This document shows positions 7,501 through 33,295 of a stretch of 64,000 bases of DNA, in pieces. This DNA comes from Bryobacterales bacterium (GTDB lineage: Bacteria; Acidobacteriota; Terriglobia; Bryobacterales; Bryobacteraceae), in the NCBI GenBank assembly GCA_963817515.1, contig CAWFPJ010000002.1, positions 39,454 to 103,453 on the forward strand. The letters run 5' to 3'. A program made the position numbers and the translations under genes. The stretch's first letter is position 1. The number at the start of each line of letters is the position of its first letter. The notes under the pieces were generated by a model. It saw only the letters and a program-made list of their open reading frames with translations. It was not told the origin of the DNA and did not search any database.

Positions 7501-8280
7501 GATCAAGCCGCTCGCGACCAGTTCCTGAACTATCAGCGCTACACCACGGTTCCCCACCAGCAGATGCGGTATAACTTTGTGTGGGAGCTGCCGGTCGGGA
7601 AGGGGAAGGCACTGCTGGGGGGCGCTCATGGGGCTCTGGATAAACTGATCGGAGGATGGCAAGTTGCCGGCACCGGCCAGTGGAGAACCAACTACTTCAC
7701 CTTGCCGACTACGATTTACCCCACCGGAAACCAGATACAAACATACGGCTATCAGTATCCTGTACAGGACTGCCGCAGCGGCGCCTGCTATCCCGCGTAT
7801 CTGTACTTTAACGGCTACATCTCGCCGCCCCAGATCAACGAACACAACGCCGCCGGCCAGTGCATTGGCGTGTGCGGCGTGCCGGCTAACTACAAGCCGG
7901 CAGGCGCCCCGCTGCTGCCCTACGGAGCCACTTCCGCTCCCAATGCACCAGCCGGGACCAACTTGTCGTCTTACTATGACACCAACACCGTCTGGGTTCC
8001 GCTCTCTAACGGCACGGTGCAGCGCACGACTTACAACAATAACCTGTCTCCCTGGCGCAACCAGTATCTTTCCGGACCGAATCAATGGTTCCTGGACGCT
8101 TCGCTGTTCAAGTCTGTCAGGATCCGTGAGAAGGTTACGCTGCGGTTCAACATTGACTTCTTCAATGCGCTGAACAACCCGAACAATCCGATCGCTGTGA
8201 CATCCGACGGGCTGCTAAGTGTGCGCAATTCCGGCAGCCCGGCGCGGGTCACTCAGTTGTCGACGCACCTGAACTGGTAA
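4555..8280 (+). pseudogene. TonB-dependent receptor with an N-terminal carboxypeptidase-regulatory-like domain, broken by about eleven frame changes
   Basis: Signal peptide plus CarboxypepD_reg text (VHGSVRDSSDAVIPAASVTLTATATGVERKTAANEAGYFAFPGVTPGPYRITVEAAGM). Plug region (LGHVLETQRIQELPVNGRGYQNLL). Barrel end ...VTLRFNIDFFNALNN...STHLNW. Receptor-like text hops between ORFs 4555-5937, 5519-6022, 5964-6446, 6272-6505, 6433-, 6566-, 6597-, 7086- and back to 6433-8280. Frame changes fall near 5600, 5915, 6185, 6490, 6540, 6625, 6793, 6855, 6990, 7060 and 7212. Confidence 0.8.
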
Positions 8281-21152: not shown

Positions 21153-22691
21153 CTAGCGGATCACGTACAAATCCAGATCCGAAGCCAGGTCTCCGTGTTC
21201 CTGAATCCCTACCGTCTTCGCCGCGGCCGCATCCATGGCTGCGGCATCCGGCATCAGGTACTCAAAGGTGGCGAGGATTCGGTAACTTCCGGGCGCCAGG
21301 CCCTCGAAACGATACAGGCCGTGCGCATCGGTTCGCGTGACCCGCAGATCCGTGAGCCGCTTGCGCCCGTCCGGGTCGTATCCTTCCAGGTAGACCGGCG
21401 CGCCAAGCACCGGTTCCGCGGAATCTTTAACAGTCCCATGGACCGCCGCCGGGCCGGACGACAGCACGAACCTGACACGATCGAAGCCGCCCCGGATGAT
21501 GGTTTCGTTCCAGCCGTCCGCGCGCACATCCGGACGGCGGGCGTAGAACGGGCCGGAAAATCCGGCGACATAGTACCCTGGCGGCGGCGCTAACAGGAAC
21601 TGCCAGCGGCCTGGAGCCAGCGGGATTCGGTTGTTGACCAGCTTCAGACTGGCTGCGGGGCCTTCGCCTGCCAGATCTTTGCGGCGCGCCATCACCTGCA
21701 TGGACCCCGATGAGAGCGCTTGCGGCGGCGCGCCCTGGAAATCGAACTGCGTGTCGCGCAGGTTCTGCAGAGGCGTGACAAGCCTCTGGTCCCGTGCCAA
21801 CTCCACAGGTACGTAGGCTGCCTGCAGCAGAGCGCCTGAGGCCGGGTCGAAGCCCTGCCCGAACAATTCGTACCCGCCCGGCGTCAGGGAATTGAATTGA
21901 AAACCGCCGCCTTGCGTGGTGTCGCGGCCCATCTCCGAGATCAGAGTCGCGGTGATTCTGATGTTCGGTTCGAGGTCCGACGTGAACGCGCCCGAGAGAC
22001 TCAATAGCTTTCCCGGCAAGGGGCGGACATCGGCGTTCGCGACCTGCCGGTCCAGATCCACGTCCAAAATTCGCGCGTCCTCCACGCTCGCGGCGGCCGG
22101 AGAATAAGTCGGCAAATAGCCGCCCTCTTCGTAGAGCTTGGCCACGGTGCGGACCACATAGGCGCCGGGCTCAAGACCGTAGATACGGTACAAACCGCGC
22201 TCATCGGTGCGGGCGCGTTGGGTAGCCTGCGGCGGCCGGGTGTTACGGTACGCCACCACATCGTGGTCGGGGAGCCCCACCTCGTTATCGTCGAGCACTG
22301 CGCCGGTGATGGCTCCGTATCGCGGCAGGCGGACGTTGAGGAATGCGGATGCGGCCTCATCCAGAGTTACCGGAGTACCCGCGGAATTCCACCGCTTCTG
22401 CCCATACTCCACCGGCAGAAAATATGGCTTCGAAATCTTGACGACATATACGCCGCCGGGAAGCGAACCGAACTCAAAGATGCCGTAGCGATTGGTGAGC
22501 GCCCGCCGCGGAGATCCAGGGGTTCCGGCGACGGGCTGCACCACCACCAGCGCTCGCGAAAGCGCCTTGCTGGTCTGGTGCTCCACCACGTTGCCGCGAA
22601 TCACGGCGGCATCCAGCGTGGTTTGCAACGTACCCAAGGCCAAGGCGAGCATCAACATCAGCAGCAGCCATTTCGCCATAGCCGGCTTCAT
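21153..22691 (-). CDS. Secreted carboxypeptidase-regulatory-like domain protein (paralog 1)
   Basis: Signal peptide WLLLMLMLALALGTL. Repeated CarboxypepD_reg text (IRGNVVEHQTSKALSRALVVV..., VHGTVKDSAEPVLGAPVYLE...HGLYRFEGLAPGSYRI). Ends ...DLDLYVIR. Confidence 0.7.
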   Translation of the reverse strand: MKPAMAKWLLLMLMLALALGTLQTTLDAAVIRGNVVEHQTSKALSRALVVVQPVAGTPGSPRRALTNRYGIFEFGSLPGGVYVVKISKPYFLPVEYGQKRWNSAGTPVTLDEAASAFLNVRLPRYGAITGAVLDDNEVGLPDHDVVAYRNTRPPQATQRARTDERGLYRIYGLEPGAYVVRTVAKLYEEGGYLPTYSPAAASVEDARILDVDLDRQVANADVRPLPGKLLSLSGAFTSDLEPNIRITATLISEMGRDTTQGGGFQFNSLTPGGYELFGQGFDPASGALLQAAYVPVELARDQRLVTPLQNLRDTQFDFQGAPPQALSSGSMQVMARRKDLAGEGPAASLKLVNNRIPLAPGRWQFLLAPPPGYYVAGFSGPFYARRPDVRADGWNETIIRGGFDRVRFVLSSGPAAVHGTVKDSAEPVLGAPVYLEGYDPDGRKRLTDLRVTRTDAHGLYRFEGLAPGSYRILATFEYLMPDAAAMDAAAAKTVGIQEHGDLASDLDLYVIR

Positions 22692-24232
22692 CGGATAACG
22701 TACAGCTCCAGATCGAGGGGCGTGTCGTGGCTTTCTTCGATCTTCACCGTGCGGGGGCCGGCCGACTCCATAGTTGCCGAATCCGGCGCCTGAAATTCGA
22801 ACGTGCTGAGGATGCGGTAATTGCCGGGAGCCACGCCGTAGAACTGGTACTGGCCGTGAATGTCGGTGCGCGCTTCCCTGACGTCGATCAGGCGCTTGCG
22901 CGCGTCCACGTCGTACGCTTCCAGGTACACCGGCGCGCCCGGCACGGCGTCATGGCCGGCAATGGCTACCGTGCCGTGAAGCTGGCCGGGAGTGGACAAA
23001 CGGAAGGTCACCAGATTGGTGCCAACCTGCGTCGAGGGCAGCAGCACTTCGTTCCAGCCATCGGCACGGCTGCGGTCCACGCCGTCCGGCCTGCCGTCTA
23101 CTCCAGGGCCTCTGAACGTTTCGGCGTAATATTTCGGCGTGGGAGCCACCGCCATGTCCCATCGGCCGGGAGCGAGTTGCGTGGCGCCCTTCGAAAGCCG
23201 CAGGGTTTCGGTCTTGCCCTCACCCGAAAGATCCTTACGGCGCGCCAATACCTGCACCGTGCTGGGGTCGATCGGCTGGCCTTGGGTGTCCTGAAATGAG
23301 AACTGCAGCGGCGGATAGGTGCGCAGGCCGATCCGGATGTCGGTGCGGTCGCGCTCGAGTTCCAGCGGCATGTAAGCGCCTAGCGGTCCGCGGCGATCGC
23401 CCGGCGCGGTTGCGTATAACTCATAGCGGCCGGGGGCCGTGGGAGCGAATTTGAAGTTGCCGTCCTGGTCGCTCGAGAAAGTCTCCGACCCGGTATCGGA
23501 AATCAAGGTCAGAAGCGCCGGCTGCGGTGGCGACAAGGGAACCAGGGCCTGTCCGGCCACGATGAATAACTGGCCCGGGTGCGGGCGAACATTCACGTTG
23601 CTGGTCTCACGGTCGATCTCCACTTCCACCTGATACGCCTGGTCCACGGCGGCCACCTCCTTATAAAACGTAGGGAGATAACCGCCCTCTTCATATTCCT
23701 TGCCCACGGTGCGGACCAGATAGCGGCCGGGCTCCAGACCGGCAATGCGATACATGCCGCGATCGTCGGTCTTCACGCGTGTGACCAGTTGCGGCGGACG
23801 GGTGTTGCGATAGATCACGACGTCGTGCTCCGGCAGGCCCACGTCATTTTCATCCAGGATGACGCCGGTAACGGAGCCGAACCGCGGCATGCGGATGTTG
23901 AGAGACGTGGATTGCGCCTCTTCGAGTACTACGGGAATACCCGGAGCTTTCCAACGCTTTTGTCCATAGAGGGCCGGCGCGAAGCTGCGCCTTGACACGC
24001 TGACCAGATAGGCGCCCGCGGGGATTGTGGGCGTCTCAAAAGCGCCGTAGGAATTGGTACGGACGGAAATTGTCGGGCCGGGCGTGCCTTGCACCGGCGT
24101 TACCACCACAAGGGCGCGCGCCAGCACTTTTCCGCTCTGATGCTCCACCACGGTTCCGCGGATGTTGGCGGCCTGGAGAATACCGGCTGTAAGAGCCAAC
24201 AGCAGACATTCCGGCATTAGATATGGGCGCAT
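22688..24232 (-). CDS. Secreted carboxypeptidase-regulatory-like domain protein (paralog 2)
   Basis: Collinear with paralog 1 (IRGTVVEHQSGKVLARALVVV..., LHGTVAIAGHDAVPGAPVYLE...HGQYQFYGVAPGNYRI, ends DLELYVIR). I place the start at ATG 24232 (MRPYLMPECLLLALTAG), not at ORF-track 24541. Its stop overlaps the paralog 1 start (ATGA). Confidence 0.7.
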   Translation of the reverse strand: MRPYLMPECLLLALTAGILQAANIRGTVVEHQSGKVLARALVVVTPVQGTPGPTISVRTNSYGAFETPTIPAGAYLVSVSRRSFAPALYGQKRWKAPGIPVVLEEAQSTSLNIRMPRFGSVTGVILDENDVGLPEHDVVIYRNTRPPQLVTRVKTDDRGMYRIAGLEPGRYLVRTVGKEYEEGGYLPTFYKEVAAVDQAYQVEVEIDRETSNVNVRPHPGQLFIVAGQALVPLSPPQPALLTLISDTGSETFSSDQDGNFKFAPTAPGRYELYATAPGDRRGPLGAYMPLELERDRTDIRIGLRTYPPLQFSFQDTQGQPIDPSTVQVLARRKDLSGEGKTETLRLSKGATQLAPGRWDMAVAPTPKYYAETFRGPGVDGRPDGVDRSRADGWNEVLLPSTQVGTNLVTFRLSTPGQLHGTVAIAGHDAVPGAPVYLEAYDVDARKRLIDVREARTDIHGQYQFYGVAPGNYRILSTFEFQAPDSATMESAGPRTVKIEESHDTPLDLELYVIR

Positions 24233-24350
24233 AAGTTCTGACCGTATGACGGCTTGGGAGGCTGGAGAGTGCAGGGAAATGTTAGACCGTACGTGACCGA
24301 AAGATGTAGCATTGAATCCGTGGTGTTCGGTATATACTAACCAAAATCGA

Positions 24351-26303
24351 ATGATCAAGCCGGTGGCTCTCATCAGTATGCCGACTCTTTCGGCGCGCTT
24401 TCCTTCGTTCCAACTGGCACTGCTGAAACCAACTCTGGAGAAGGCCGGCATCCCCGCCCAGACGTTCTCTATGTTTATGTATTTTGGGCAACAGATCGGT
24501 TGGAGAATCAACGAAGCCATTGCCGACGTCTGGCCCAGCATGGTGGGTGAATGGATCTGGACAAAGGCCGCTTTCGGAGACCAGATACGGCAGGATGACG
24601 ACGCCTATTTCGGGGCTTACGACTATATTTTCAAAGCGATTTGCCGCGCCGCCGGCTGTAGCACCAAACGCTTTCAAAAGATCCGCGACCAGGAAGCTCA
24701 GAAGTTTATAGACTTCTGCCTGGAGGCCATAGACTGGCGGCGCTTCGGAGTAATTGGCTTTTCCGTGGTCTTCCAGCAAACGCTGGCCAGCCTGGCGCTG
24801 GCTAAAGCTCTGAAGAAGCGATACCCGGAGATTCCCATCATTTTCGGAGGAGCGAGTCTGGAAGACGATATCGCCGACGAGATCATGCGGGAGTGTCCTC
24901 AGGTGGATTACCTGCACTGCGGCGACGCCGAAATCTCATTTCCCGAAATGGTGCAGCGGCTGTATCGCGGCCAATCCATGGAGGGCTTGCGCGGCCTGAT
25001 GTGGCGCAACGGGGACAAAGTGGAGTATGCCGGCCGGGCGCCCAATTTCATGGCCATGGATGAGACTCCGCTGCCGGATTTCGACGAGTACTTCTACGCC
25101 CGCAAGGAAGGCGGCTACGAGGATTACGACGAGGCCTGCGAACCGCTGCTTCCGATCGAGACGGCGCGGGGCTGCTGGTGGGGCGAAAAACACCACTGCA
25201 CCTTTTGTGGTTTGAACCGCTCAGGCATGGAGTTTCGCGCCAAGGAGCCGGAGCGCGTCCTCGAGCAACTGGAAGATCTGGCGCGAAAATACGGGGTTCT
25301 GCACTTCAATGCCATCGACAATATTATGGCGCCGGAATACACGGAGAAGCTCTTCCGCCGCCTGGCTGAGGCCAATAGCGACCTGCAGCTCCATTATGAG
25401 ATCCGGCCCAATTTTTCGCGAACCCAACTCGGCCGGATGCGGAAGGGGGGCCTGTATTCGGTTCAACCGGGCGTGGAGAGCCTCTCTACCAACATTCTGA
25501 AAAGCATGCGCAAGAATACCACCGGCATGCGCAATGTCGAGTTGATCAAGTGGTGCACGTACTACGGGATCAATAATATGTACAACATCCTGATGCGCTT
25601 TCCGGGCGAGACCGAGGAAGACTACAGGGTACAGGCAGCGCTGGTCCCCAAGCTGCTCCATTTGCAGCCGCCCTACGGAATCGTCAAGGCGCGGGCTGAC
25701 CGTGGCTCCCCCATGTTTACCGAACCGGAAACGCAATCCATCACGCGCCTCAAACCGGCCGCCTGTTACGACCACATTTTTCCCAAGGGCTTCAATCTGG
25801 AGCGGGTGTCTTACTATTTCGACCACGAGATGGACAACATTGTGGACGAAGAATGCTACGGAGATCTGCTGGACCATGTGGCCCGGTGGCAGGCTAGTTG
25901 GACCGACGCCGGCCACCCGACGCTGCGCTACCGGAAGGCGCTCAAGAGCATCGTCATCGAAGATAGACGGCGCCGGAAACCTAAGACATATTCGTACGTG
26001 GACGGCCCGGCCGCTCTTTATGAATACTGCGCCGATGCGCGAACGCCGCGCGATATATCCGCCAACATAGGATCCGGGCCGGGTTCCGAAACCTGGATAC
26101 AGGAGGCGCTGGATGAATTCGTAAGCAGAGATCTGATGCTCTTTCTGGATGGCCGATATCTCAGCCTGGCGCTGCCCGAGAATCCGGATTTCGAACTGGT
26201 GACGCCGCCGCGTGCGCTCTCTGAAAGCGGCGCCGGCGCGCAAAGCAACTCGGCTGCGGGTTTGGTTTCACTGGCCGGATTGACAGGAGGACATTCCCAT
26301 TAA
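24351..26303 (+). CDS. B12-binding-domain-type radical SAM enzyme, RiPP-maturase-like (candidate TIGR03975-type C-methyltransferase family)
   Basis: ATG 24351 (MIKPVALISMPTLSARFPSFQLALLKP) is preferred over TTG 24312. Cluster motif ETARGCWWGEKHHCTFCGLN with Cys codons at 25173, 25197 and 25206. The N-terminal region is flavodoxin/B12-like, and there is a C-terminal extension of about 250 aa. The family assignment is from memory of the GCWWG..HC.FCGLN signature and needs an HMM search. Confidence 0.75.
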   Translation: MIKPVALISMPTLSARFPSFQLALLKPTLEKAGIPAQTFSMFMYFGQQIGWRINEAIADVWPSMVGEWIWTKAAFGDQIRQDDDAYFGAYDYIFKAICRAAGCSTKRFQKIRDQEAQKFIDFCLEAIDWRRFGVIGFSVVFQQTLASLALAKALKKRYPEIPIIFGGASLEDDIADEIMRECPQVDYLHCGDAEISFPEMVQRLYRGQSMEGLRGLMWRNGDKVEYAGRAPNFMAMDETPLPDFDEYFYARKEGGYEDYDEACEPLLPIETARGCWWGEKHHCTFCGLNRSGMEFRAKEPERVLEQLEDLARKYGVLHFNAIDNIMAPEYTEKLFRRLAEANSDLQLHYEIRPNFSRTQLGRMRKGGLYSVQPGVESLSTNILKSMRKNTTGMRNVELIKWCTYYGINNMYNILMRFPGETEEDYRVQAALVPKLLHLQPPYGIVKARADRGSPMFTEPETQSITRLKPAACYDHIFPKGFNLERVSYYFDHEMDNIVDEECYGDLLDHVARWQASWTDAGHPTLRYRKALKSIVIEDRRRRKPKTYSYVDGPAALYEYCADARTPRDISANIGSGPGSETWIQEALDEFVSRDLMLFLDGRYLSLALPENPDFELVTPPRALSESGAGAQSNSAAGLVSLAGLTGGHSH

Positions 26304-26352
26304 CCACCTGGCATCTCCCCGCATTGCAACCCCGCGCGAGGAGTTGCTGGAC

Positions 26353-29262
26353 ATGCTGCTGCAGCGTGGAATTTTGCGCCGCAACGAAGCTCAGCCGGTG
26401 CTTTCACGCGATGGCAAACCGGCCCGCTGGATGCTGGATTCGCTGGCCGTCACGATGACCAGCAGGGGAGCGGAACTGGCCGGACAGCTTGTGCTGGAGC
26501 GTCTGCGGAATTTCGATGGCCGGCAAATCGCGACCTACGGGCTGACCGCGGTTCCCATCCTGCAATCGGCAATCGTGCAATCGGCAGTTCTGCAGCCGGA
26601 ACGCCCGTATCACGGTCTGCTGGTGCGCAAAGAGCGCAAAGCGTACGGTTCGCAGAAACTGATTGAAGGCTGCATCGATCCGGACGAGCCCACTATACTG
26701 ATCGACGATTCCGTCGCCTCCGGCGTGAGCATGAGTGAGGGCATCGAGAAACTGGAGGCGGCCGGTATTCGCGTTGAGGGATGCGTGGCTCTGGTGCGGT
26801 TCGGTTGGGAAGGCGGATTTTCGATGCTTGCCCAGCGCGGCCTTCACGTGGAGGCGGTCTACGACATCTTTGAAGACTTCATGGCGCGAATGGAGGGCGA
26901 GCCTGGGCCAGACTATAACCCGACAAAGTGCTTTCCGGAATTTCGCTGGAGCACGCGGCGCGCGCCCGAGGGGCTGCATCCGGCACGTCTTGCCAGAGAG
27001 GTGATGCAGGAGTATTTCGCCAGCGGCGAGTTGCTGAGGCCACCGGACCGCCTGGATCGCGATGACTACGATTCCAGGGGAGGGGCCTGGGTGAGCCTGC
27101 GGTCACGGGACGATATGTTCGAGCGTTACGCGCGCGACGGCTTCTGGCATTTTCCCCAGGAGGGATCCTGGGGAGCGGCCGAGGATATCGTCCGCGCGGC
27201 GTTCCGCACTGCCCTCGAAATGTCCGCGGGCGGCAAGGGCATCAGTCTGCTGGGAGACAGCCATGCCGCTGTGACGTTGTTTTCGAGGCTCGAACGCGCG
27301 GCCATCGGGGAACTGGACAACCAACGCTACGGCATAATCGTAGCCAGTGCGGAGCGGCCGGAAATCATGGGCGGCGCTCTGCCCGGTATGCCGGGAATCC
27401 GTGACGAATGGCAACAGTTCCGCCACGCCCGGTATAACAATGCCGCGCTGTACCCTCACGAACCTTACACGGTCTACCGCCATGAAGTTCGAAAGTTCAT
27501 CGAACCGGGAGCGCCGTGGCCGCCGGGAGGAGTGGGGGACTCGAAGACGCCGGGCGATTTCGGCGCCTGGGCCGTGCGCGCCCGTGAAGTCGTCACCCGT
27601 GAAATAAGCCGGGGCTGCGAACCCTTCACACCGCTGGCGGCGGTCCACCTTCCGGAGAACGCCAGACTCATGTTCGTGACGCTCTATATCGACGGGCGGG
27701 TGCGCGGCTGCATGGGCTCGGAAATCGGCGATGCCGAAGAGGATCTCCGTGAACTGGCGCAGTCGGCCCTTACCGACGAGCGGTTCGAAGCCGCGCCGAT
27801 CGAGGAAGATTCTACCGTGGCGGTGAGCGTCTCGGTGCTCTACAACGAATTGGTTATGGGAGATTTCTCGCGTGAGGAGGTCCGCTTCCGCTATCGGCAT
27901 GGACAGCAGGCGTTGATGCTCGACCAGAAGGGCCGCGAGGGACTGCTGCTGCCATGCGTGGCAACGTGGCTCAGCCTTGACGCCGAGGATTTCGTCGATG
28001 AAGTGATTGACAAGGCGGGCGTCACGCGTCCGCCGTATAACTGGCGGCGCTTTGATTGCGATACCTGGCTGGCGGACGAAGACGGGGTTGCGCGGCTCGA
28101 TGGCGCTTTCAAGGTTGCTGCTTATCATCACACGGCCGATCTTTATAGGGCCGATCTTTCCCTCGCCAAAATCGCTCGCCTGCACGCGGACTATTTGCTG
28201 CGCAACCAGCGCCCGGATGGATCGCTCTACTTCGGCCACTACGCATTTGAGAACACACTCTACCAGGGCATTGACGCGGCTCACCTGGCGCACGCAGGCT
28301 GGATTCTGGCGCGGGCAGGTTTGGCCGACGCCTCAAACGCGGCTCTGGAACGAGCGGCAAATCTATCCGGGGACGAGCCGCTCAGGCTTTCGCGCGACGC
28401 GTTTTTCCTGCTCGCGAAGTGCGAACCGGCCCTGGCCGAGGGTGACCTGCCGGCGGCTGCGGAAATCGCGGCCAGACTGTGGACGTCAATAGACCGTCAT
28501 GGTCGCGTGACCACCTGGAGTCCGCCTGCGGCCGTGGAATCTGATGATGAGGATTCCGCCGATGCCCCCGAGGCTGACACCGGCGTGAGCGAGACCATTG
28601 ACGCTGAGGACCTTCAGAACTATGCTCCTGGCCATGTCCTGCTGGCCCTTGCCGCGGCCGCACGCGCAGGCAATTTTCCCTGCGACGAGCGGAAACTCAA
28701 CCGCGCGTTTCTGTATTACCGGCATCGTTTCCGCTACAAACGGGATTTCGGACAGGTTTCCTGGATGGCGCTGGCCTGGAGCGCCTGGTGGCGGCTGCGG
28801 AATGAACCGGAGTTTGCAGATTTCGTTTTCGAGATCGCCGACTGGATTCTGCAATTTCAGCACACCGGCACCGGAGCTTTTCTTACCGATCACCAACCGG
28901 ATACTCCCGGGTACACTACCGCGGTTTATCTGGAAGGCATCGCTGCCGCGGCGGTGACGGCACTCGCGCGCGGCGACACCACGCGGTACCAGCGATATTC
29001 GGACGCACATCGCCGCGGCTTCGCATTTCTTGACCGGTTGATCATTCAGGATCGCGATAGCTCTGTGCTTCCCAATCCCGGATACGCTCTAGGCGGTCTT
29101 CGCGAAAACCTATACAGCAGTCACATCCGAATCGATTTCGTGGCCCACTCGCTGGCCGCGATTCTCGAACTTTATCCCCAAGCTCTAATTCCAGTAGCAA
29201 ATACAAGAGGAGAATCAGAATGGCAGGCAAGAAGAAACCAAAGAAGCCAGGACCAATTATAG
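26353..29262 (+). CDS. Multidomain fusion protein: type I phosphoribosyltransferase domain + AMMECR1 domain + C-terminal helical-repeat (alpha/alpha-toroid-like) domain
   Basis: GAGGAG (26338-26343) lies 9 nt before ATG 26353; the ORF track starts at TTG 26344. OPRT-like N-terminus with the PRPP loop TILIDDSVASGVSM (about 26692-26735). AMMECR1 signature MFVTLYIDGRVRGCMGS ... GQQALMLDQKGREGLLLPCVA (about 27670-27960). The C-terminal 350 aa or so carry W/Y-rich helical repeats (LLRNQRPDGSLYFGHY, VSWMALAWSAWWRL, AVYLEGIAAAAV). Confidence 0.7.
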   Translation: MLLQRGILRRNEAQPVLSRDGKPARWMLDSLAVTMTSRGAELAGQLVLERLRNFDGRQIATYGLTAVPILQSAIVQSAVLQPERPYHGLLVRKERKAYGSQKLIEGCIDPDEPTILIDDSVASGVSMSEGIEKLEAAGIRVEGCVALVRFGWEGGFSMLAQRGLHVEAVYDIFEDFMARMEGEPGPDYNPTKCFPEFRWSTRRAPEGLHPARLAREVMQEYFASGELLRPPDRLDRDDYDSRGGAWVSLRSRDDMFERYARDGFWHFPQEGSWGAAEDIVRAAFRTALEMSAGGKGISLLGDSHAAVTLFSRLERAAIGELDNQRYGIIVASAERPEIMGGALPGMPGIRDEWQQFRHARYNNAALYPHEPYTVYRHEVRKFIEPGAPWPPGGVGDSKTPGDFGAWAVRAREVVTREISRGCEPFTPLAAVHLPENARLMFVTLYIDGRVRGCMGSEIGDAEEDLRELAQSALTDERFEAAPIEEDSTVAVSVSVLYNELVMGDFSREEVRFRYRHGQQALMLDQKGREGLLLPCVATWLSLDAEDFVDEVIDKAGVTRPPYNWRRFDCDTWLADEDGVARLDGAFKVAAYHHTADLYRADLSLAKIARLHADYLLRNQRPDGSLYFGHYAFENTLYQGIDAAHLAHAGWILARAGLADASNAALERAANLSGDEPLRLSRDAFFLLAKCEPALAEGDLPAAAEIAARLWTSIDRHGRVTTWSPPAAVESDDEDSADAPEADTGVSETIDAEDLQNYAPGHVLLALAAAARAGNFPCDERKLNRAFLYYRHRFRYKRDFGQVSWMALAWSAWWRLRNEPEFADFVFEIADWILQFQHTGTGAFLTDHQPDTPGYTTAVYLEGIAAAAVTALARGDTTRYQRYSDAHRRGFAFLDRLIIQDRDSSVLPNPGYALGGLRENLYSSHIRIDFVAHSLAAILELYPQALIPVANTRGESEWQARRNQRSQDQL

Positions 29263-29664
29263 AAGTGGCCCCGCCCGTGAAGAAGGGCTATGGAGGAATC
29301 ATCGAAGTGGCTCCGCCAACCGGCAAGCGTCGGGTCACCAAGCCGGTGATCGAAATAGCGCCGCCGGTCAAAGGCAAACGGCCCGGTGACGTGATTGTCG
29401 AAGTGGCTCCGGACATCAAGAAAAAGGCCGGTGGTGTGATGGAAATAGCGCCCGCCGTTCAACGGAAGAGCAAACCCCCCGGGGGGCCCATAAAGGAGAT
29501 AGCACCGGCGGTGAAGCCAAAGCCTTCCAAGCCCTGTGGGGCCGATTAAGGAAGTGGCCCCACCTACCAAGCCAAAGCCGAAGCCCATAGTGGAAATCGC
29601 GCCCCCTAAGAAGAAGTACAAGGGGCCGATTGTCGAAGTGGCTCCTCCGACTAAGAAGAAGTAG
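29220..29664 (+). CDS. Lys/Pro-rich repeat peptide (nine IEVAPP-type repeats). The reading frame is interrupted once, at the G4 run 29538-29541.
   Basis: GAGGAG (29207-29212) lies 7 nt before ATG 29220, and the start is 43 nt inside the end of the upstream gene. ORF 29220-29549 encodes six repeats and stops at TAA 29547. The +1 frame continues with three more repeats (GPIKEVAPPTKPKPKPIVEIAPPKKKYKGPIVEVAPPTKKK) to TAG 29662-29664. Removing one G joins them into a 147-aa product. Differences between repeats are mostly synonymous in this strand and frame. Confidence 0.65.
29256..29649 (+). repeat. Nine degenerate in-frame coding repeats (period 39-51 nt) encoding [IVMP][IVMK]E[VI]AP[PAD]
   Basis: Cores: IIEVAPP, IIEVAPP, VIEIAPP, IVEVAPD, VMEIAPA, IKEIAPA, IKEVAPP, IVEIAPP, IVEVAPP. 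They are separated by K/R/G/P-rich linkers. Confidence 0.85.
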
Positions 29665-29696
29665 CAGATAGCGCCGGCGGCTTAGAAAACCGGCGG

Positions 29697-29729
29697 CAAA
29701 AAACACCGGCGGCGGAGACCGCCGGCGCT
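29697..29729 (-). terminator. Rho-independent terminator for the minus-strand respiratory operon, shared with the convergent peptide gene
   Basis: On the minus strand: CCGGCGG-tctccg-CCGCCGG hairpin (plus-strand coordinates 29706-29725) followed by TGTTTTTTG (plus-strand A-run 29698-29703). It lies 55 nt downstream of the DUF420 stop. Confidence 0.65.
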
Positions 29730-29783
29730 ACCGGCGACAGATACTCCGGTGCTACAGGCTGCCGAGGCCGTCGGCGCTGCTGC

Positions 29784-30194
29784 TCAGAAGTGGTAGAGCA
29801 TCACGTACACCACCACGCCGGTCACGCTCACGTAAAGCCAGATGGGCAGCGTCCAGCGCGCAATTTTCCGGTGTTTGTCGTAACGGGCAGCCAGGCCGCG
29901 GCGCAGCGTGATAGTCGCCAGCACCGGAACCGTCGCGGCCAGCACTGTGTGGGTGAACAGGATGGTGAAATAGACAGTGCGGATGGCGCCGGTATGCTGA
30001 AACTTCACCGAGCCCACCTGCAGGTGATATATCACGTAGCAGACCAGAAATAAACACGAAGTCGCGAACGCGGTTTTCATGACCCGGCGGTGCTGGTCGA
30101 TGCGTTTGCGGCGAATCAGGATGAAGCCCCACACCAGCAGCACGGCGGCCGTGGCGTTGAGCGTGGCATTTACGGTGGGCAGTATTGCGATCAT
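29784..30194 (-). CDS. DUF420 domain-containing membrane protein (CtaM-like oxidase-associated factor)
   Basis: Four predicted TM helices. The NATLNATAAVLLVWGFILIRRKRIDQHRRVM and HTVLAATVPVLATITLRRG pattern is typical of DUF420. Confidence 0.7.
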   Translation of the reverse strand: MIAILPTVNATLNATAAVLLVWGFILIRRKRIDQHRRVMKTAFATSCLFLVCYVIYHLQVGSVKFQHTGAIRTVYFTILFTHTVLAATVPVLATITLRRGLAARYDKHRKIARWTLPIWLYVSVTGVVVYVMLYHF

Positions 30195-30790
30195 GATCGC
30201 TCGCGCTGTAACTGGTGGAGGTCGTGGAGCAGGCGCGCCTTGAAGTCGTCGTCGGAGGTCAGATAGAAGCCGCGAATGCGCCGCCGGCCATCCACCAAGG
30301 CGAACCGCGTGCTGTGACTCAGGCTGCCGTCTACGCCGGTGAGCTTGAAACCCTTGAGCCCGAGTTCGTTGAGGCGCGCCATATCGCCGGTCAGGAAATA
30401 CCAGCGCGCCAGGTCGGCTTTGAAGAATTGCGCGTACTTGGCGAGCACCGGCGGGGTGTCGTGCGCCGGGTCCACCGTGAAGGAAACCAGCTTGACGTCA
30501 GGCGTCGATTCGGTGGAACTTTGCAGTCCGCGCATCTGGTGGCTCATCATGGGGCAGGGGCCGTCGCAAGTTGTGTAAATGAAATCGGCGATCCAGATGT
30601 GGCCATCGAGAGTCTTGCTGTCGAAGGGCTGGCCGGTCTGGAGGATGAGGTCGAACTGTGGAACCTCGCCCAGCACCGGCAGCGGCTTGGTGGTGACGCA
30701 TGAGGCTAGAAGGGATAACAGGAGGCATGCCGTGCCGGTTTGAAAGCCGGCGTGGCACGCACGAGTGCCTGCTCCACGGCGGGTGCTCAT
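30191..30790 (-). CDS. SCO1/SenC family copper chaperone (thioredoxin fold)
   Basis: I place the start at ATG 30790 (MSTRRGAG...LLLSLLASC); ORF-track 31486 is a spurious extension. CDGPC copper motif in IADFIYTTCDGPCPMM and the downstream SHSTRF histidine. Its stop overlaps the DUF420 start. Confidence 0.85.
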   Translation of the reverse strand: MSTRRGAGTRACHAGFQTGTACLLLSLLASCVTTKPLPVLGEVPQFDLILQTGQPFDSKTLDGHIWIADFIYTTCDGPCPMMSHQMRGLQSSTESTPDVKLVSFTVDPAHDTPPVLAKYAQFFKADLARWYFLTGDMARLNELGLKGFKLTGVDGSLSHSTRFALVDGRRRIRGFYLTSDDDFKARLLHDLHQLQRERS

Positions 30791-31518
30791 GTGGTTGACT
30801 TCTGCGCCGCCAACATGCCGGAGGCCAGTAGAAGCGCCAGTCCGAAGGCCGCGGTGATGGCGAGGCTTTCGGCCGGCCCGGGGACGGCGTTGGGCAACCC
30901 GAGCATATAGTTCAGCAGGGAGATTGAATAGGTGAGCGGGTTGATCCACATGAGGGCCCTTACCCATCCGTGCGCCGTGGCCATGGGGAAGAGGGCGCCT
31001 GACACCATCCACATGGGCACCAGCAGCAACATCATGATGCCGTGAAATGCCGCGGTGGAATCCATTTTCCATGCGATCGCAAACCCGAGACCGGTGAGCG
31101 TGAACGAAATTAGAAACATCGCGGCCACAACCCACAACACATCTATCAGCCCGATGCTCACCCCGGCCAGCGGGGCGAAGACCAGCAGCATCAGGCCCTG
31201 GATCCAGCCCAACGTGGCGGCGCCCAGAATCTTGCCCAGCACCAGGCTGGTGCGCGGCGCGGGCGAAACCAGCATGGAAAGCAGAAAACCCTCCCTGCGG
31301 TCTTCGATGATCGAAATGGTGGAAAAGATGGCGGAAAACATCACCGTCAGCACCAGAGTTCCCGAATAGTATCGCGCCAGGTCGCCCGAACCGTAACCGA
31401 TCAGCAGCCAGAAAACCAGCGGCGAAGCCACCACGCTCATCACGCGGCTTTTCTGGCGCCAGAAGCGCAGCATTTCGCGCTGCCACAAGGTTGCTGCGGG
31501 CAAGAAGAAGCTACTCAA
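30787..31518 (-). CDS. ABC-2 type transporter permease
   Basis: Six hydrophobic segments. TLWQREMLRFWRQKSRV is the typical ABC-2 N-terminus. The start is uncertain: TTG 31518 overlapping the ATPase stop, or ATG 31473. ATGA overlap with the SCO gene. Confidence 0.7.
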   Translation of the reverse strand: MSSFFLPAATLWQREMLRFWRQKSRVMSVVASPLVFWLLIGYGSGDLARYYSGTLVLTVMFSAIFSTISIIEDRREGFLLSMLVSPAPRTSLVLGKILGAATLGWIQGLMLLVFAPLAGVSIGLIDVLWVVAAMFLISFTLTGLGFAIAWKMDSTAAFHGIMMLLLVPMWMVSGALFPMATAHGWVRALMWINPLTYSISLLNYMLGLPNAVPGPAESLAITAAFGLALLLASGMLAAQKSTT

Positions 31519-32420
31519 GCGCCGCTCCCGTTTCGCGTATGAACACGTCTTCGAGCGTAGGTTTATGCAGGCCGACGGATTCCACCGCGCCCGGAAACGC
31601 CTCCACCACTTCGGCAATGAAGCGGTGGCCGTTCTGCATTTCCACGCGCACCTGGCCGTCCCGGGTTACAGGGTGCAGGCCGAAGCGCTGCTCAATCTTG
31701 GCCGCCAGCGATTTGCTGTCCGCCGTTTCCAGAAGCACCACATCGCCGCCGATACGCGCGCGCAATTCGCTGGAACTGCCCTGCGCCACGATGCTTCCCC
31801 TCGTGCAACAGGGCCAGCCGGTCGCAACGGTCGGCTTCATCCAGAATGTGGGTGGTCAGCAGGATGGTGACGCCCTCGTGTTCGCGCAGGCTCTCGACGT
31901 GCCGCGAAAGGTCGCGCCGCGCAGCCGGGTCGAGGCCGGTCGAAGCCTCATCCATCAACAGCACCTTGGGCTGATGCAGCAGCGCCTTGGCGATCTCCAC
32001 GCGCCGGCGCAATCCGCCGGAAAGCGCTTCCACCAGATCTTTGCGCCGATCCGTCAAGCCCAGGCGCTCCATGGCGCGGGCCATTCGCTCGCGCAGCAGC
32101 ACGCCGCTGAGACCGTGCAGGTGGCCCTGCGCGCGCAGGTTCTCTTCCACCGTAAGGGCCTTGTCCAGGCTTTGCGTCTGGAAGACCACGCCTACTTCGC
32201 GGCGCACGGCGGCGGGCTCGCGCTCCACATCATGGCCCGCGATGATTGCGCGGCCTTCGGTGGGCGACATCATGGTGGAGAGAATACGGAAGAGCGTGGA
32301 TTTTCCACCGCCGTTGGGCCCGAGAAGGCCGAAGATTTCACCTTTCTTCACGTCGAAGCTGACGCTCGAAAGCGCAACCCGGTCACCGTAGCGATGGGTA
32401 AGGTTTTGAACTTGGATCAC
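31511..32420 (-). pseudogene. ABC transporter ATP-binding protein with one apparent 1-nt insertion near 31792
   Basis: GTG 32420 start (VIQVQNLTHRYG) overlaps the haem O synthase stop (GTGA). Walker A GPNGGGKST, signature LSGGLRRRV, Walker B LLMDEAS. The frame of ORF 31692-32972 gives ...LALLHEGKHRGAG. The frame of ORF 31511-31840 gives SIVAQGSSSELRARIGG.... Deleting one base restores LHEGKIVAQG. Confidence 0.8.
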
Positions 32421-33295
32421 AGACCGGGCCTGTCTAGGAGCATGAGCCCGTAGATAAGCGGCAGGTATATCACGGACGTAATCAGGACATTGCGCGCGCG
32501 CACCAGGCTTCGCTCCAGCGCTACCCGCACACCTGAATATAAAAACCAAAGACCGAGCAGCAGAGCCCCGACAAGATAGATGCGTCCCGACATTCCCAGG
32601 AGACCCGGCACCAGGCTGACCGGAATCAGCGCCAGACCATACAGCACGATCTGCCGCGCCGTGGACCGGCCGTCCGGCTCCACTACGGGCAGCATCAGGA
32701 TGCCGGCGCGCGCGTAGTCTTCCCGATACATCCAGGCGATCGAATAGAAATGCGGGAACTGCCATAGGAAAAGGATCGCGAACAGAACCCACGATTCGCG
32801 CGTGATGCCGCCGGCCGCCGCAGCGTAACCGATCATAGGCGGCATGGCCCCCGGAATCGCGCCGACTGTAGTGGACCACCATGTCCGCTGCTTCATGGGG
32901 GTGTAGAGGAACAGATAACTGACCAGCGTAAAGGCGCCGATCAAGGCCGAAAGCAGATTCACCCCCAGCCACAACTCGAGAAAACCGGCGGTTGAAAGCA
33001 CTGTGCCAAAGGCCAGCGCGCGACCGGCGGACAGCCTGCCCGAAGGTAGCGGCCGGTCCGCCGTGCGGTGCATCTTGCGATCGGCTACGCGCTCATACCA
33101 CTGGTTCAGCGCCGCCGTGCCGGAGGCTATGAGCGCGGTCCCGAAGATGGTGTGCAAGAGCGAGAGAAGATTGATGTGGGTGAGGAAGTCCCACCAGGTG
33201 GCAGCACGGGGCAGCCCGAAGAAATACCCGATCCCTGTGCTCATGAGGATCAGCCAGGTGATTCGCGGTTTCGTCAATTCGATGTAATCGCGCAT
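32417..33295 (-). CDS. ctaB: Protohaem IX farnesyltransferase (haem O synthase)
   Basis: UbiA-family text: YIELTKPRITWLILMSTGIGY, NQWYERVADRKMHRTADRPLPSGRL, FLWQFPHFYSIAWMYREDYARAG. Confidence 0.9.
   Translation of the reverse strand: MRDYIELTKPRITWLILMSTGIGYFFGLPRAATWWDFLTHINLLSLLHTIFGTALIASGTAALNQWYERVADRKMHRTADRPLPSGRLSAGRALAFGTVLSTAGFLELWLGVNLLSALIGAFTLVSYLFLYTPMKQRTWWSTTVGAIPGAMPPMIGYAAAAGGITRESWVLFAILFLWQFPHFYSIAWMYREDYARAGILMLPVVEPDGRSTARQIVLYGLALIPVSLVPGLLGMSGRIYLVGALLLGLWFLYSGVRVALERSLVRARNVLITSVIYLPLIYGLMLLDRPGL

What the first reader, a model, noticed from the sequence alone, without database searches (positions are those of the whole stretch)
24351..29664. Three-gene cassette: B12-type radical SAM enzyme + PRTase-AMMECR1-helical fusion + nine-repeat IEVAPP peptide (candidate undescribed peptide-modification system)
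Three co-directional genes are packed between a divergent promoter region (24233-24350) and a convergent terminator (29697-29729).
(i) 24351-26303 encodes a B12-binding-type radical SAM enzyme with GCWWGEKHHCTFCGLN. I remember this signature from the RiPP-maturation rSAM C-methyltransferase family (TIGR03975).
(ii) 26353-29262 encodes a 969-aa fusion of a type I phosphoribosyltransferase domain, an AMMECR1 domain and a helical-repeat C-terminal domain.
(iii) 29220-29664 encodes a Lys/Pro-rich peptide of nine [IVM]xE[VI]AP[PAD] repeats. Its ATG has its own GAGGAG and lies 43 nt inside the end of gene ii, which suggests translational coupling.
AMMECR1 is the A component of the AmmeMemoRadiSam trio (AMMECR1 + Memo + radical SAM), whose substrate is still unknown. 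Here AMMECR1 again sits beside a radical SAM enzyme. Four things differ from that trio: Memo is absent, the rSAM is of the B12/RiPP-maturase type, a PRPP-using domain is fused on, and a plausible repetitive peptide substrate is encoded in cis. I know of no described RiPP or protein-modification pathway with this composition.
Basis: partly seen in the sequence, partly recalled or inferred. Interest (0 to 1): 0.9.

Follow-up and report, generated by a model that had tools for sequence, protein, structure and literature searches.

The report
Repeat-peptide modification cassette with AMMECR1 enzyme
Three adjacent genes, a B12-type radical SAM methyltransferase, a four-domain PRPP-transferase/AMMECR1/helical-barrel protein and a small protein built of E-V/I-A-P repeats, travel together in several bacterial phyla, so they probably form an undescribed protein-modification system that gives the mysterious AMMECR1 domain a candidate substrate.

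Summary
The cassette is real and its co-occurrence is far from chance.

- **Gene i** (24351-26303) is a full-length TIGR03975 B12/radical SAM enzyme (563 bits, cut-off 282).
- **Gene iii** does not run as one ORF from 29220 to 29664. It stops at TAA 29547-29549 after six repeats. Three more repeats follow in the +1 frame. Related soil contigs carry two extra bases there and read through.

Across 73 loci holding gene ii homologues, at least 54 carry all three genes, in three gene orders. They come from Acidobacteriota, Actinomycetota and Pseudomonadota. Thiothrix and a 32%-identity clade lack the rSAM but still pair the fusion with an E-φ-(x)-P repeat protein. Some sublineages add a prolyl-hydroxylase-like oxygenase, a carbamoyltransferase or a second rSAM.

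My best reading is a leaderless repeat protein modified in place. The rSAM would C-methylate the EVAP units. The fusion would carry out PRPP-dependent chemistry, possibly on the invariant Glu. The chemistry is inferred, not shown. I found no literature on this combination.

The parts
24233..24350 (.). Divergent intergenic region upstream of gene i; presumed promoter region
   Evidence: The upstream minus-strand gene starts at ATG 24232 and gene i at ATG 24351. There is no Rfam hit, so no cobalamin riboswitch. The simple scan found no sigma-70-like site here.
24351..26303 (+). Gene i: B12-binding-type radical SAM enzyme, TIGR03975 family (650 aa)
   Evidence: TIGR03975 563.1 bits against a cut-off of 281.85, matching model positions 1-606 of 606. 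PF04055 53.8 bits. PF02310 29.6 bits, just under its gathering score of 32.1. The Cys motif C-x7-C-x2-C is visible in the sequence. The nearest solved structure is TokK, E 3e-9.
26353..29262 (+). Gene ii: four-domain fusion protein (969 aa from ATG 26353; the true start may lie between 26299 and 26344)
   Evidence: Homologues extend about 16 aa further at the N-terminus, and the conserved REELLDMLL is encoded upstream of the ATG. The frame is open from 26284, and AGGAGG sits at 26285-26290.
26353..26910 (+). Gene ii domain 1: type I phosphoribosyltransferase, OPRT-like (residues 1-186)
   Evidence: TIGR00336 59 bits, below its cut-off. Profile hits to human and mycobacterial OPRT, E 6e-15 to 2e-11, with the RKERKxHG catalytic loop and the DDSxSSG PRPP loop aligned. 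These residues are invariant in 20 homologues. VIA Z is about 8. Model confidence is low here.
26920..27522 (+). Gene ii domain 2: divergent AMMECR1-like domain without the RGCxG cysteine (residues ~190-390)
   Evidence: pLDDT is above 90. Weak PF01871 hits in 4 of 20 homologues, best E 2.5e-4. Residues 206-261 align in register with PH0010 residues 14-68, and RDGFWHF replaces LRGCIGF. The top Atlas feature hits are AMMECR1 at 0.78, a lead only. hhalign against domain 3 was not significant.
27547..28107 (+). Gene ii domain 3: canonical AMMECR1 domain (residues 399-585)
   Evidence: PF01871 69.8 bits against a cut-off of 25. VIA Z 16.8, rmsd 3.1 Å over 178 residues, to PH0010 (1vaj). G452-C453-G455 and L533-P534 are invariant.
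28138..29184 (+). Gene ii domain 4: (α/α)6 six-hairpin barrel (residues ~596-944)
   Evidence: Model pLDDT 82. VIA Z is 20-23 to GH76, GH88 and GH105 glycosidases, sugar 2-epimerases and class II terpene cyclases, in a flat list. Best Foldseek E is 3e-6. Many Arg and aromatic residues are invariant and there is no Cys.
29207..29212 (+). GAGGAG Shine-Dalgarno sequence of gene iii, inside the 3' end of gene ii
   Evidence: Read directly from the sequence; 7 nt upstream of ATG 29220.
29220..29549 (+). Gene iii as it stands: 109-aa Lys/Pro-rich ORF with six E-[VI]-A-P repeats, ending at TAA 29547-29549
   Evidence: It overlaps gene ii by 43 nt. No Pfam or NCBIfam family matches.
29535..29541 (+). 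Frameshift site: a 2-nt deletion relative to related strains
   Evidence: Two contigs of run X1 carry GT after 29538 and T29535G, which restores a single frame.
29539..29664 (+). Continuation of gene iii in the +1 frame: three more E-[VI]-A-P repeats, ending at TAG 29662-29664
29694..29724 (-). GC-rich hairpins with the T-tract on the minus strand, between the cassette and the convergent DUF420 gene
   Evidence: They mark the 3' boundary of the cassette.

Best explanation
This is a self-contained post-translational modification cassette. Its substrate is the small, intrinsically disordered repeat protein encoded in cis.

The substrate has no leader peptide in this clade. Each copy of the short unit [P/V]-[I/V]-x-E-[V/I]-A-P is itself the recognition and modification site, so one protein is modified 6-23 times.

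The four-domain protein is the core enzyme. Its OPRT-like domain binds PRPP. I infer that it transfers 5-phosphoribosyl to the unit. The most economical acceptor is the invariant Glu carboxylate, the only reactive side chain kept in every lineage. The AMMECR1 and (α/α)6 domains would hold the peptide or process the ribosyl adduct.

The TIGR03975 B12/radical SAM enzyme is an add-on. It would C-methylate an unactivated carbon in the Ala-containing (EVAP-type) units. Other lineages add hydroxylation, carbamoylation or a second rSAM.

What is shown: domain identities, conservation of the catalytic motifs, the motif itself, and co-occurrence.

What is inferred: that the repeat protein is the substrate, which residue is modified, and the chemistry.

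In this genome the substrate gene carries a frameshift after repeat 6.
For: **Family assignments.** Gene i is TIGR03975 at 563 bits. In gene ii the PRTase loop and PRPP motif, AMMECR1 and the six-hairpin fold are supported.

**Co-occurrence.**
- Full-length fusion homologues number more than 120 at 50-72% identity.
- In 73 genome loci, 52 show all three genes by automatic scan. The orders are P-R-F 30, R-F-P 15 and P-F-R 7 (P = repeat peptide, R = rSAM, F = fusion).
- Two more loci carry a variant motif seen by eye.
- Most of the rest are cut by contig ends.
- Hosts include Acidobacteriota, Mycobacterium sp. (two copies), Acidimicrobiaceae and alphaproteobacterial MAGs.
- Identity of the fusion and of the rSAM to the window's proteins co-varies across 48 loci, r = 0.92.

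**The motif is the conserved feature.** In 476 units from 48 loci, E, A and P are fixed. Position +1 is V/I in 95%. Position -2 is I/V in 86%. Linkers and net charge vary freely. Codon third positions vary, which shows protein-level selection.

**Fusion and repeat protein are the primary pair.**
- Thiothrix loci have (E-[IV]-[KR]-P)n proteins directly upstream of the fusion and no rSAM within 8 kb.
- The 32%-identity clade has E-[FLV]-P proteins.
- None of five such genomes has a TIGR03975 hit over the cut-off.
- The PRTase motifs are retained even in that clade.

**Tailoring genes typical of peptide pathways.** A PF13640 prolyl-hydroxylase-like oxygenase sits next to the peptide in 16 loci. 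A carbamoyltransferase occurs in 8 loci. A second B12-rSAM occurs in the 'Angelobacter' group.

**Joint decay.** In L073 the fusion is frameshifted and the downstream peptide has lost its motif.

**Operon structure.** Gene iii starts 43 nt inside gene ii. The overlap is also present in L013 (31 nt) and L015 (8 nt).
Against: - There is no direct evidence of any modification and no expression data.
- No leader peptide, protease or exporter is conserved. This departs from classical RiPP logic.
- I know of no PRTase that uses a peptide carboxylate as acceptor, so that step is speculation.
- The PRTase domain was modelled with low confidence.
- The (α/α)6 domain resembles carbohydrate- and terpene-active enzymes as much as anything else.
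- The link between rSAM presence and Ala in the motif rests on one or two independent rSAM-less lineages.
- The substrate gene is frameshifted here, so the system may be impaired in this genome.
- The cassette is rare: 5 of 400 sampled species of the phylum, and not found in the same-genus genome searched.
Confidence: 0.6

Rival explanations
1. This is a peptide-derived small-molecule or cofactor pathway, following the logic of PQQ, mycofactocin or pearlin-type systems. The repeat protein would be a sacrificial multi-copy scaffold. A unit (Glu plus neighbours) is converted by the rSAM and the AMMECR1/barrel domains into a heterocycle or acid. That product is excised, and the OPRT-like domain ribosylates it with PRPP to give a nucleotide-like product.
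For: OPRT-type PRTases normally act on small carboxylated heterocycles, and the catalytic loop and PRPP motif are intact. The many identical core units and the missing leader fit a yield-maximising scaffold. A carbamoyltransferase occurs in some clusters.
Against: No peptidase is conserved in or near the cassette. The PRTase is covalently fused to domains that co-vary with the repeat protein. Rival and main hypotheses share most of their evidence and differ only in the fate of the peptide.
Confidence: 0.15
2. The enzymes act on a non-peptide substrate such as a nucleotide, sugar or isoprenoid. The repeat protein is a structural, regulatory or scaffold partner (a PEVK/TonB-like extended proline-rich protein), not a substrate.
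For: The AMMECR1 function is unknown. The barrel resembles terpene cyclases and glycosidases. Short AMMECR1-barrel proteins of about 600 aa exist without obvious peptide neighbours in the three contexts examined.
Against: Gene i belongs to a family curated as a RiPP maturase, at 563 bits. A strictly conserved 4-residue motif inside an otherwise hypervariable protein is what enzyme recognition sites look like. A prolyl-hydroxylase-like oxygenase lies beside the peptide in 16 loci. Fusion and peptide decay together in L073.
Confidence: 0.15
3. In this particular genome the cassette is a decaying remnant. The frameshift in gene iii is real, and the system is non-functional or reduced to a six-repeat substrate.
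For: A stop falls at 29547-29549 after six repeats, while related contigs are in frame. The distribution is rare and patchy. L073 gives a precedent for decay.
Against: Genes i and ii are intact and full length. The truncated ORF keeps its SD, ATG and six units. A 2-nt indel next to a G-run may be an assembly error. This rival concerns the state of this copy, not what the system is.
Confidence: 0.3

Closest known systems
Proteusin-type RiPP clusters with TIGR03975 B12-radical SAM C-methyltransferases (polytheonamide PoyB/PoyC type; recalled from my own knowledge, with the family name from NCBIfam)
   Same: Gene i is a full-length member of the same curated family. It is encoded next to a small protein rich in Val, Ile and Ala that could take iterative C-methylation. 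antiSMASH flags such loci as RiPP-like through a TIGR03975 rule (PMC9426513).
   Different: The precursor has no NHLP or Nif11 leader (no NCBIfam hit). No epimerase, dehydratase, protease or exporter is present. The substrate is a tandem array of one 4-residue motif. The conserved partner enzyme is a PRTase-AMMECR1-barrel protein that is not known from any proteusin pathway.
AmmeMemoRadiSam system (AMMECR1 + Memo + PflA-like radical SAM; TIGR04335/04336/04337)
   Same: An AMMECR1 domain with the RGCxG and LLLP motifs is again genetically coupled to a radical SAM enzyme.
   Different: TIGR04335 is below its cut-off (76 against 99 bits). The rSAM is the B12 type, not the PflA-like type. The only Memo gene of the genome lies on another contig beside accB/accC. 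AMMECR1 is duplicated and fused to a PRTase and an (α/α)6 barrel. A candidate substrate is encoded in cis. In some lineages there is no rSAM at all.
Multi-core or scaffold peptide pathways (cyanobactins; PQQ and mycofactocin precursors; recalled from my own knowledge)
   Same: Many copies of a short core lie in one translation product, with the modifying enzymes encoded alongside.
   Different: Here there are no recognition sequences, no flanking protease sites and no peptidase gene, and there are up to 23 copies. The enzymes share no family with those pathways.
Orotate phosphoribosyltransferase (PyrE)
   Same: The fold, the flexible catalytic loop RKExKxHG and the PRPP loop DDxxxSG are shared.
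   Different: The score is well below the equivalog cut-off (59 against 107 bits). The domain is fused into a 969-aa protein, and relatives searched encode separate, stand-alone PyrE-sized PRTases. The acceptor is unknown.
PEVK / TonB-type Pro-Glu-Val-Lys rich disordered repeats (resemblance recalled from my own knowledge)
   Same: The composition and the E-V-x-P periodicity are similar, and the conformation is probably extended.
   Different: These are small cytosolic-looking proteins with no signal peptide, no anchoring domain and no membrane domain. They are always encoded beside the fusion enzyme.

Membership tests
TIGR03975 (RiPP maturation radical SAM C-methyltransferase) | HMM score above the curated cut-off over the full model | tested here: met
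   563.1 bits against 281.85, model positions 1-606 of 606. The next best family scores 67 bits.
TIGR03975 (RiPP maturation radical SAM C-methyltransferase) | Radical SAM core with a three-Cys cluster motif | tested here: met
   PF04055 53.8 bits. C-x7-C-x2-C is visible within GCWWGEKHHCTFCG.
TIGR03975 (RiPP maturation radical SAM C-methyltransferase) | N-terminal cobalamin-binding domain | tested here: inconclusive
   PF02310 scores 29.6 bits, E 6.9e-7, just under the gathering score of 32.1.
TIGR03975 (RiPP maturation radical SAM C-methyltransferase) | C-methyl transfer to a peptide | not testable with these tools
   Needs an enzymatic assay or mass spectrometry.
Proteusin / NHLP-Nif11 RiPP cluster | Precursor with an NHLP or Nif11-type leader | tested here: not met
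   Neither part of gene iii hits any Pfam or NCBIfam family. The repeats begin 13 residues after the start Met.
AmmeMemoRadiSam system | Family A protein (TIGR04335) above its cut-off | tested here: not met
   76.1 bits against a cut-off of 99.
AmmeMemoRadiSam system | Memo-family partner encoded alongside | tested here: not met
   The only PF01875 match in the genome is on contig C10, flanked by accB/accC-like genes.
AmmeMemoRadiSam system | PflA-like radical SAM partner (TIGR04337) | tested here: not met
   TIGR04337 is not among the 21 NCBIfam families matched by gene i at E <= 0.01. TIGR03975 is the best match.
AMMECR1 domain (PF01871) | Pfam score above the gathering threshold and the AMMECR1 fold | tested here: met
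   69.8 bits against 25. VIA Z 16.8 to 1vaj over residues 399-584. The RGCxG Cys is invariant in 20 homologues.
Type I phosphoribosyltransferase | PRPP-binding loop and, for the OPRT subgroup, the flexible catalytic loop | tested here: met
   DDSxSSG and RKERKxHG align with human, M. tuberculosis and C. diphtheriae enzymes. They are invariant in the family.
Orotate phosphoribosyltransferase proper (TIGR00336) | Equivalog score above the cut-off | tested here: not met
   59.4 bits against 106.8.
Six-hairpin (α/α)6 barrel enzymes | The fold | tested here: met
   VIA Z 20-23, rmsd 3.1-3.7 Å over 270-305 residues. Which family within the fold is inconclusive, because the list is flat: GH76, GH88, GH105, epimerases and class II terpene cyclases.
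RiPP pathway in general | Gene-encoded precursor next to its modifying enzymes | tested here: met
   At least 54 of 73 loci.
RiPP pathway in general | Leader or follower peptide plus a protease or exporter | tested here: not met
   There is no leader in the Bryobacterales-type peptides. No protease or transporter cluster is shared by 8 or more loci.
RiPP pathway in general | Covalent modification of the peptide | not testable with these tools
   Needs mass spectrometry.

The most novel reading that the evidence does not exclude
The PRTase-AMMECR1-AMMECR1-(α/α)6 protein catalyses a previously unknown protein modification. This would be PRPP-dependent (phospho)ribosylation, or ribose-derived rearrangement, at the Glu of iterated E-φ-(x)-P units. 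That would give the first substrate and biochemical role for an AMMECR1 domain. Together with B12-rSAM methylation it would define a new class of leaderless, poly-modified repeat proteins.
Probability: 0.2. Interest if true: 0.9.

Novelty: new variant of a known kind. Interest (0 to 1): 0.78.

Why it matters
AMMECR1 is conserved from archaea to humans and is linked to a human contiguous-gene deletion syndrome. Yet I found no paper that assigns it a catalysed reaction or a substrate.

Here an AMMECR1 protein is tied by comparative genomics to a specific four-residue peptide motif. That turns an open question into an experiment.

The cassette also points to several further things:
- a RiPP-like pathway with an enzyme composition I could not find described;
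- a possible use of PRPP in peptide chemistry;
- a leaderless, motif-by-motif mode of substrate recognition.

It occurs in a cultured isolate, Mycobacterium sp. OAS707, in two copies. It is small enough (about 5.3 kb) for heterologous expression.

Tried and rejected
- **Complex prediction.** Complex prediction with the whole fusion and a 31-residue two-repeat piece of the peptide gave no answer (score 0.00). This is no evidence either way.
- **Expression.** No RNA holder was listed for the stretch, so expression is untested.
- **Peptide homologue search.** The search for homologous proteins with the intact 124-aa peptide P0122 returned nothing, probably because of its low complexity. Motif scans of loci were used instead.
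- **Domain duplication test.** hhalign of the middle domain against the AMMECR1 domain was not significant. The duplication claim rests on weaker evidence.
- **Short-form relatives.** The contexts of three short AMMECR1-barrel proteins were uninformative.
- **Clean-insertion test.** In four relatives the flanking genes lie on different contigs, so I could not show that the cassette is a clean insertion.
- **Programmed frameshift.** I considered programmed +1 frameshifting at 29535-29549 and rejected it. There is no slippery or prfB-like site, and relatives simply carry two more bases.
- **Riboswitch.** No cobalamin riboswitch or other Rfam RNA was found in 22000-31000.
- **LanC-like reading of the barrel.** No conserved Cys or His metal site appears among the invariant residues. 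No LanC chain appeared among the listed structural neighbours, which does not exclude one.
- **Literature.** The Burroughs et al. 2019 paper on Memo-AMMECR1 systems is not held.


Full report
**What is in the window**

Three co-directional ORFs on the plus strand lie between two unrelated blocks. Upstream are two divergently transcribed CarboxypepD_reg-domain proteins. Downstream is a convergent block of cytochrome-oxidase assembly genes: DUF420, SCO1/SenC, an ABC ATPase and a UbiA-family prenyltransferase. The cassette has a slightly lower G+C content (0.56-0.62) than its flanks (0.62-0.65).

**Gene i (24351-26303, 650 aa)**

- It is a full-length member of NCBIfam TIGR03975, 'RiPP maturation radical SAM C-methyltransferase': 563.1 bits against a cut-off of 281.85.
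- The next B12-rSAM families (ApyD, P-methylases, BchE, HpnJ and others) score 67 bits or less.
- Pfam sees the radical SAM core. It also sees a B12-binding domain just under threshold.
- The nearest solved structure by sequence is TokK.

**Gene ii (26353-29262, 969 aa) has four domains, not three**

- *Residues 1-186: a type I PRTase of the orotate-PRTase kind.* A profile of 20 homologues hits human, mycobacterial and corynebacterial enzymes at E 6e-15 to 2e-11. The flexible catalytic loop (RKERKxHG) and the PRPP loop (DDSxSSG) both align and are invariant in the family. It scores far below the PyrE equivalog cut-off, and the model is of low confidence there.
- *Residues ~190-390: a confidently folded domain (pLDDT above 90).* I read it as a degenerate AMMECR1 duplicate, on three weak lines of evidence.
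  - There are weak PF01871 hits in 4 of 20 homologues.
  - Its N-terminal half aligns in register with PH0010, with RDGFWHF in place of LRGCIGF.
  - AMMECR1 clusters are its nearest language-model neighbours.
  - Against this, a profile-profile comparison with the next domain was not significant.
- *Residues 399-585: a canonical AMMECR1 domain.* Pfam gives 69.8 bits. VIA gives Z 16.8 to 1vaj.
- *Residues ~596-944: an (α/α)6 barrel.* Z is 20-23 to a flat list of six-hairpin glycosidases, sugar epimerases and class II terpene cyclases. It has many invariant Arg and aromatic residues and no conserved Cys.
- *Start codon.* Homologues extend about 16 residues further at the N-terminus, and that conserved stretch is encoded upstream of ATG 26353. 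The real start is therefore probably TTG 26344 or a non-canonical codon near 26299-26308, behind AGGAGG at 26285-26290.

**Gene iii is only partly as described**

- The ATG at 29220 has GAGGAG 7 nt upstream and lies 43 nt inside gene ii.
- The ORF ends at TAA 29547-29549 after six E-[VI]-A-P units. Three further units follow in the +1 frame, up to TAG 29662-29664.
- Two contigs from a soil metagenome, about 92-93% identical, have GT inserted after 29538 and read straight through.
- The ancestral gene therefore had nine units. This genome carries a 2-nt deletion or an assembly error.
- The repeats are not chance and not merely repeated DNA.
  - The motif frequency genome-wide is 3.8e-5 per six-frame residue.
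  - No other ORF in the genome has four or more copies.
  - The nine copies agree at 93% of first and second codon positions, but at only 41% of third positions.

**Comparative genomics carries the argument**

- The fusion has more than 120 full-length homologues at 50-72% identity in public data, mostly annotated only as 'AMMECR1 domain-containing protein' or 'orotate phosphoribosyltransferase'.
- It is rare. No full-length homologue was found in 40 relatives, including a same-genus genome. It was found in 5 of 400 sampled species of the phylum.
- A scan of species-representative genomes gave 73 loci.
  - In 52 of them an automatic scan finds the fusion, a TIGR03975-like rSAM (52-84% identical to gene i) and a same-strand ORF with 3-23 E-[VIML]-A-P units.
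  - Three arrangements occur: rSAM-fusion-peptide as here (Bryobacterales), peptide-rSAM-fusion (Blastocatellia, Pyrinomonadaceae), and peptide-fusion-rSAM (Mycobacterium sp. OAS707 twice, Acidimicrobiaceae and others).
  - The 'Angelobacter' group has a variant unit (RPIVEV[VS][AP][ED]) and a second rSAM paralogue.
  - Most remaining loci are cut by contig ends on the side where the missing gene is expected.
- Identity of the fusion and of the rSAM to the window's proteins co-varies across 48 loci, r = 0.92. The loci are related, so this is descriptive only.
- In L073 the fusion is frameshifted and the downstream peptide has lost its motif, which suggests joint decay.

**What stays constant in the peptide**

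- Over 476 units from 48 loci, E, A and P are fixed.
- The residue between E and A is V or I in 95%. Position -2 is I or V in 86%.
- Everything else varies, including net charge. Linkers are basic in Bryobacterales and acidic in Mycobacterium.
- Bryobacterales-type proteins start their repeats 8-13 residues after the initiator Met, so they have no leader.

**The fusion and a repeat protein form the primary pair**

- Four Thiothrix-group loci have no rSAM within 8 kb.
- In the three with upstream sequence, the gene directly upstream of the fusion encodes (E-[IV]-[KR]-P)n, with up to 33 units and no Ala.
- A clade at 32% identity is preceded by a protein of about 170 aa with five or six E-[FLV]-P motifs.
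- None of five such genomes contains a TIGR03975 member over the cut-off.
- The PRTase motifs persist even in that distant clade.
- The common denominator of the fusion's partner is therefore E-hydrophobic-(x)-P.
- EVAP-type units appear only where the rSAM is present. That correlation rests on very few independent rSAM-less lineages.

**Accessory genes fit a peptide-tailoring pathway**

- A PF13640 (prolyl-4-hydroxylase-like) 2OG oxygenase lies directly upstream of the peptide in 16 loci.
- A NodU/CmcH-type carbamoyltransferase is present in 8 loci.
- No protease or transporter is shared.

**Mechanism**

What is shown: the domain families, the intact catalytic motifs, the motif, and the linkage.

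What is inferred:
- The repeat protein is the substrate and is modified unit by unit.
- The rSAM C-methylates an unactivated carbon of the EVAP units, by analogy with its family.
- The fusion uses PRPP. The invariant Glu is the only reactive side chain retained in all lineages, so phosphoribosylation of Glu is the most economical guess.
- The AMMECR1 domains and the barrel would bind the peptide or process the adduct. Most of the barrel's structural neighbours act on sugars.

I put about 0.6 on the general statement and about 0.2 on the specific Glu-phosphoribosyl chemistry.

The main rivals are:
- a sacrificial-scaffold route to a small nucleotide-like molecule;
- enzymes acting on a non-peptide substrate, with the repeat protein as a partner;
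- for this genome only, a decaying copy.

**Comparison with known systems**

- *Proteusin RiPP clusters.* The cassette shares the rSAM family. It lacks their leader, their other enzymes and their export genes.
- *AmmeMemoRadiSam.* It shares only the AMMECR1-rSAM theme and fails all three membership features. The sole AMMECR1 domain of this genome is in gene ii. The sole Memo gene stands alone elsewhere.
- *Broader family.* The AMMECR1-barrel pair also exists as stand-alone proteins of about 600 aa in other bacteria. The window's protein is thus an elaborated member of a broader uncharacterised family.
- *Literature.* Full-text searches found no paper that combines AMMECR1 with RiPPs, PRTases or this rSAM, and none that assigns AMMECR1 a reaction. 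antiSMASH flags TIGR03975 loci generically as RiPP-like.

**Verdict**

The system is an undescribed variant of gene-encoded peptide or protein modification, with an unprecedented core enzyme. It is directly testable, including in a cultured Mycobacterium.

Noticed in passing
G000 contig C32:21579-23387 (outside the window): A second TIGR03975-like B12-rSAM, 35% identical to gene i over its full length, lies elsewhere in the same genome. It may belong to another RiPP-like locus.
   Followed up: no
L015:1829-3886 (same record as L023): Directly upstream of the cassette in an Acidobacteriaceae MAG lie three tandem 60-aa DUF1843 genes and a radical SAM/SPASM enzyme. This looks like a separate RiPP cluster. 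rSAM-SPASM genes recur near the cassette in 16 loci, at varying positions and on varying strands.
   Followed up: partly
L052:12561-13166 (Mycobacterium sp. OAS707): A Macro-domain protein (PF01661, an ADP-ribose-binding domain family) is encoded convergently right after the cassette's rSAM. This is suggestive for ribosyl chemistry, but it is a single locus. An L-lysine ε-oxidase-like gene and FAD enzymes lie upstream.
   Followed up: no
G000 contig C10:313037-313921 (L097:1165-2403): The genome's only Memo-family gene stands alone beside accB/accC-like genes. It has no AMMECR1 or radical SAM neighbour, so this genome has no canonical AmmeMemoRadiSam cluster.
   Followed up: yes
window 26284-26353: The annotated ATG of gene ii probably truncates the protein. 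Conserved N-terminal residues are encoded upstream, with only TTG 26344 or the non-canonical ATT 26299 / CTG 26308 as possible starts. AGGAGG at 26285-26290 overlaps the end of gene i.
   Followed up: partly
L073:7716-11231: In a Terriglobia MAG the fusion gene is split by a frameshift, and the downstream small ORF retains only relics of the motif (IEYAP, GDTAPP). The cassette appears to be decaying as a unit. This could also reflect long-read assembly errors.
   Followed up: partly
L046, L077, L085 (rSAM region about 6080-7925): The rSAM matches are split into two pieces in different frames in three MAGs. These are either frameshifts or homopolymer errors of long-read assemblies.
   Followed up: no
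window 21156-24232 (- strand): Two tandem paralogous proteins are built of CarboxypepD_reg, SdrD_B and prealbumin-like β-sandwich domains. They appear unrelated to the cassette.
   Followed up: no
window 29787-33295 (- strand): A cytochrome-oxidase assembly block (DUF420, a 431-aa SCO1/SenC protein, an ABC ATPase and a UbiA-family prenyltransferase, presumably heme O synthase) converges on the cassette.
   Followed up: no
ESM Atlas cluster, row 3: A cyanobacterial family of about 819 aa fuses an Asp/Asn β-hydroxylase domain (PF05118) to a barrel with the same shape as the gene ii C-terminal domain (TM 0.77). This hints that such barrels may accompany peptide-modifying catalytic domains.
   Followed up: no
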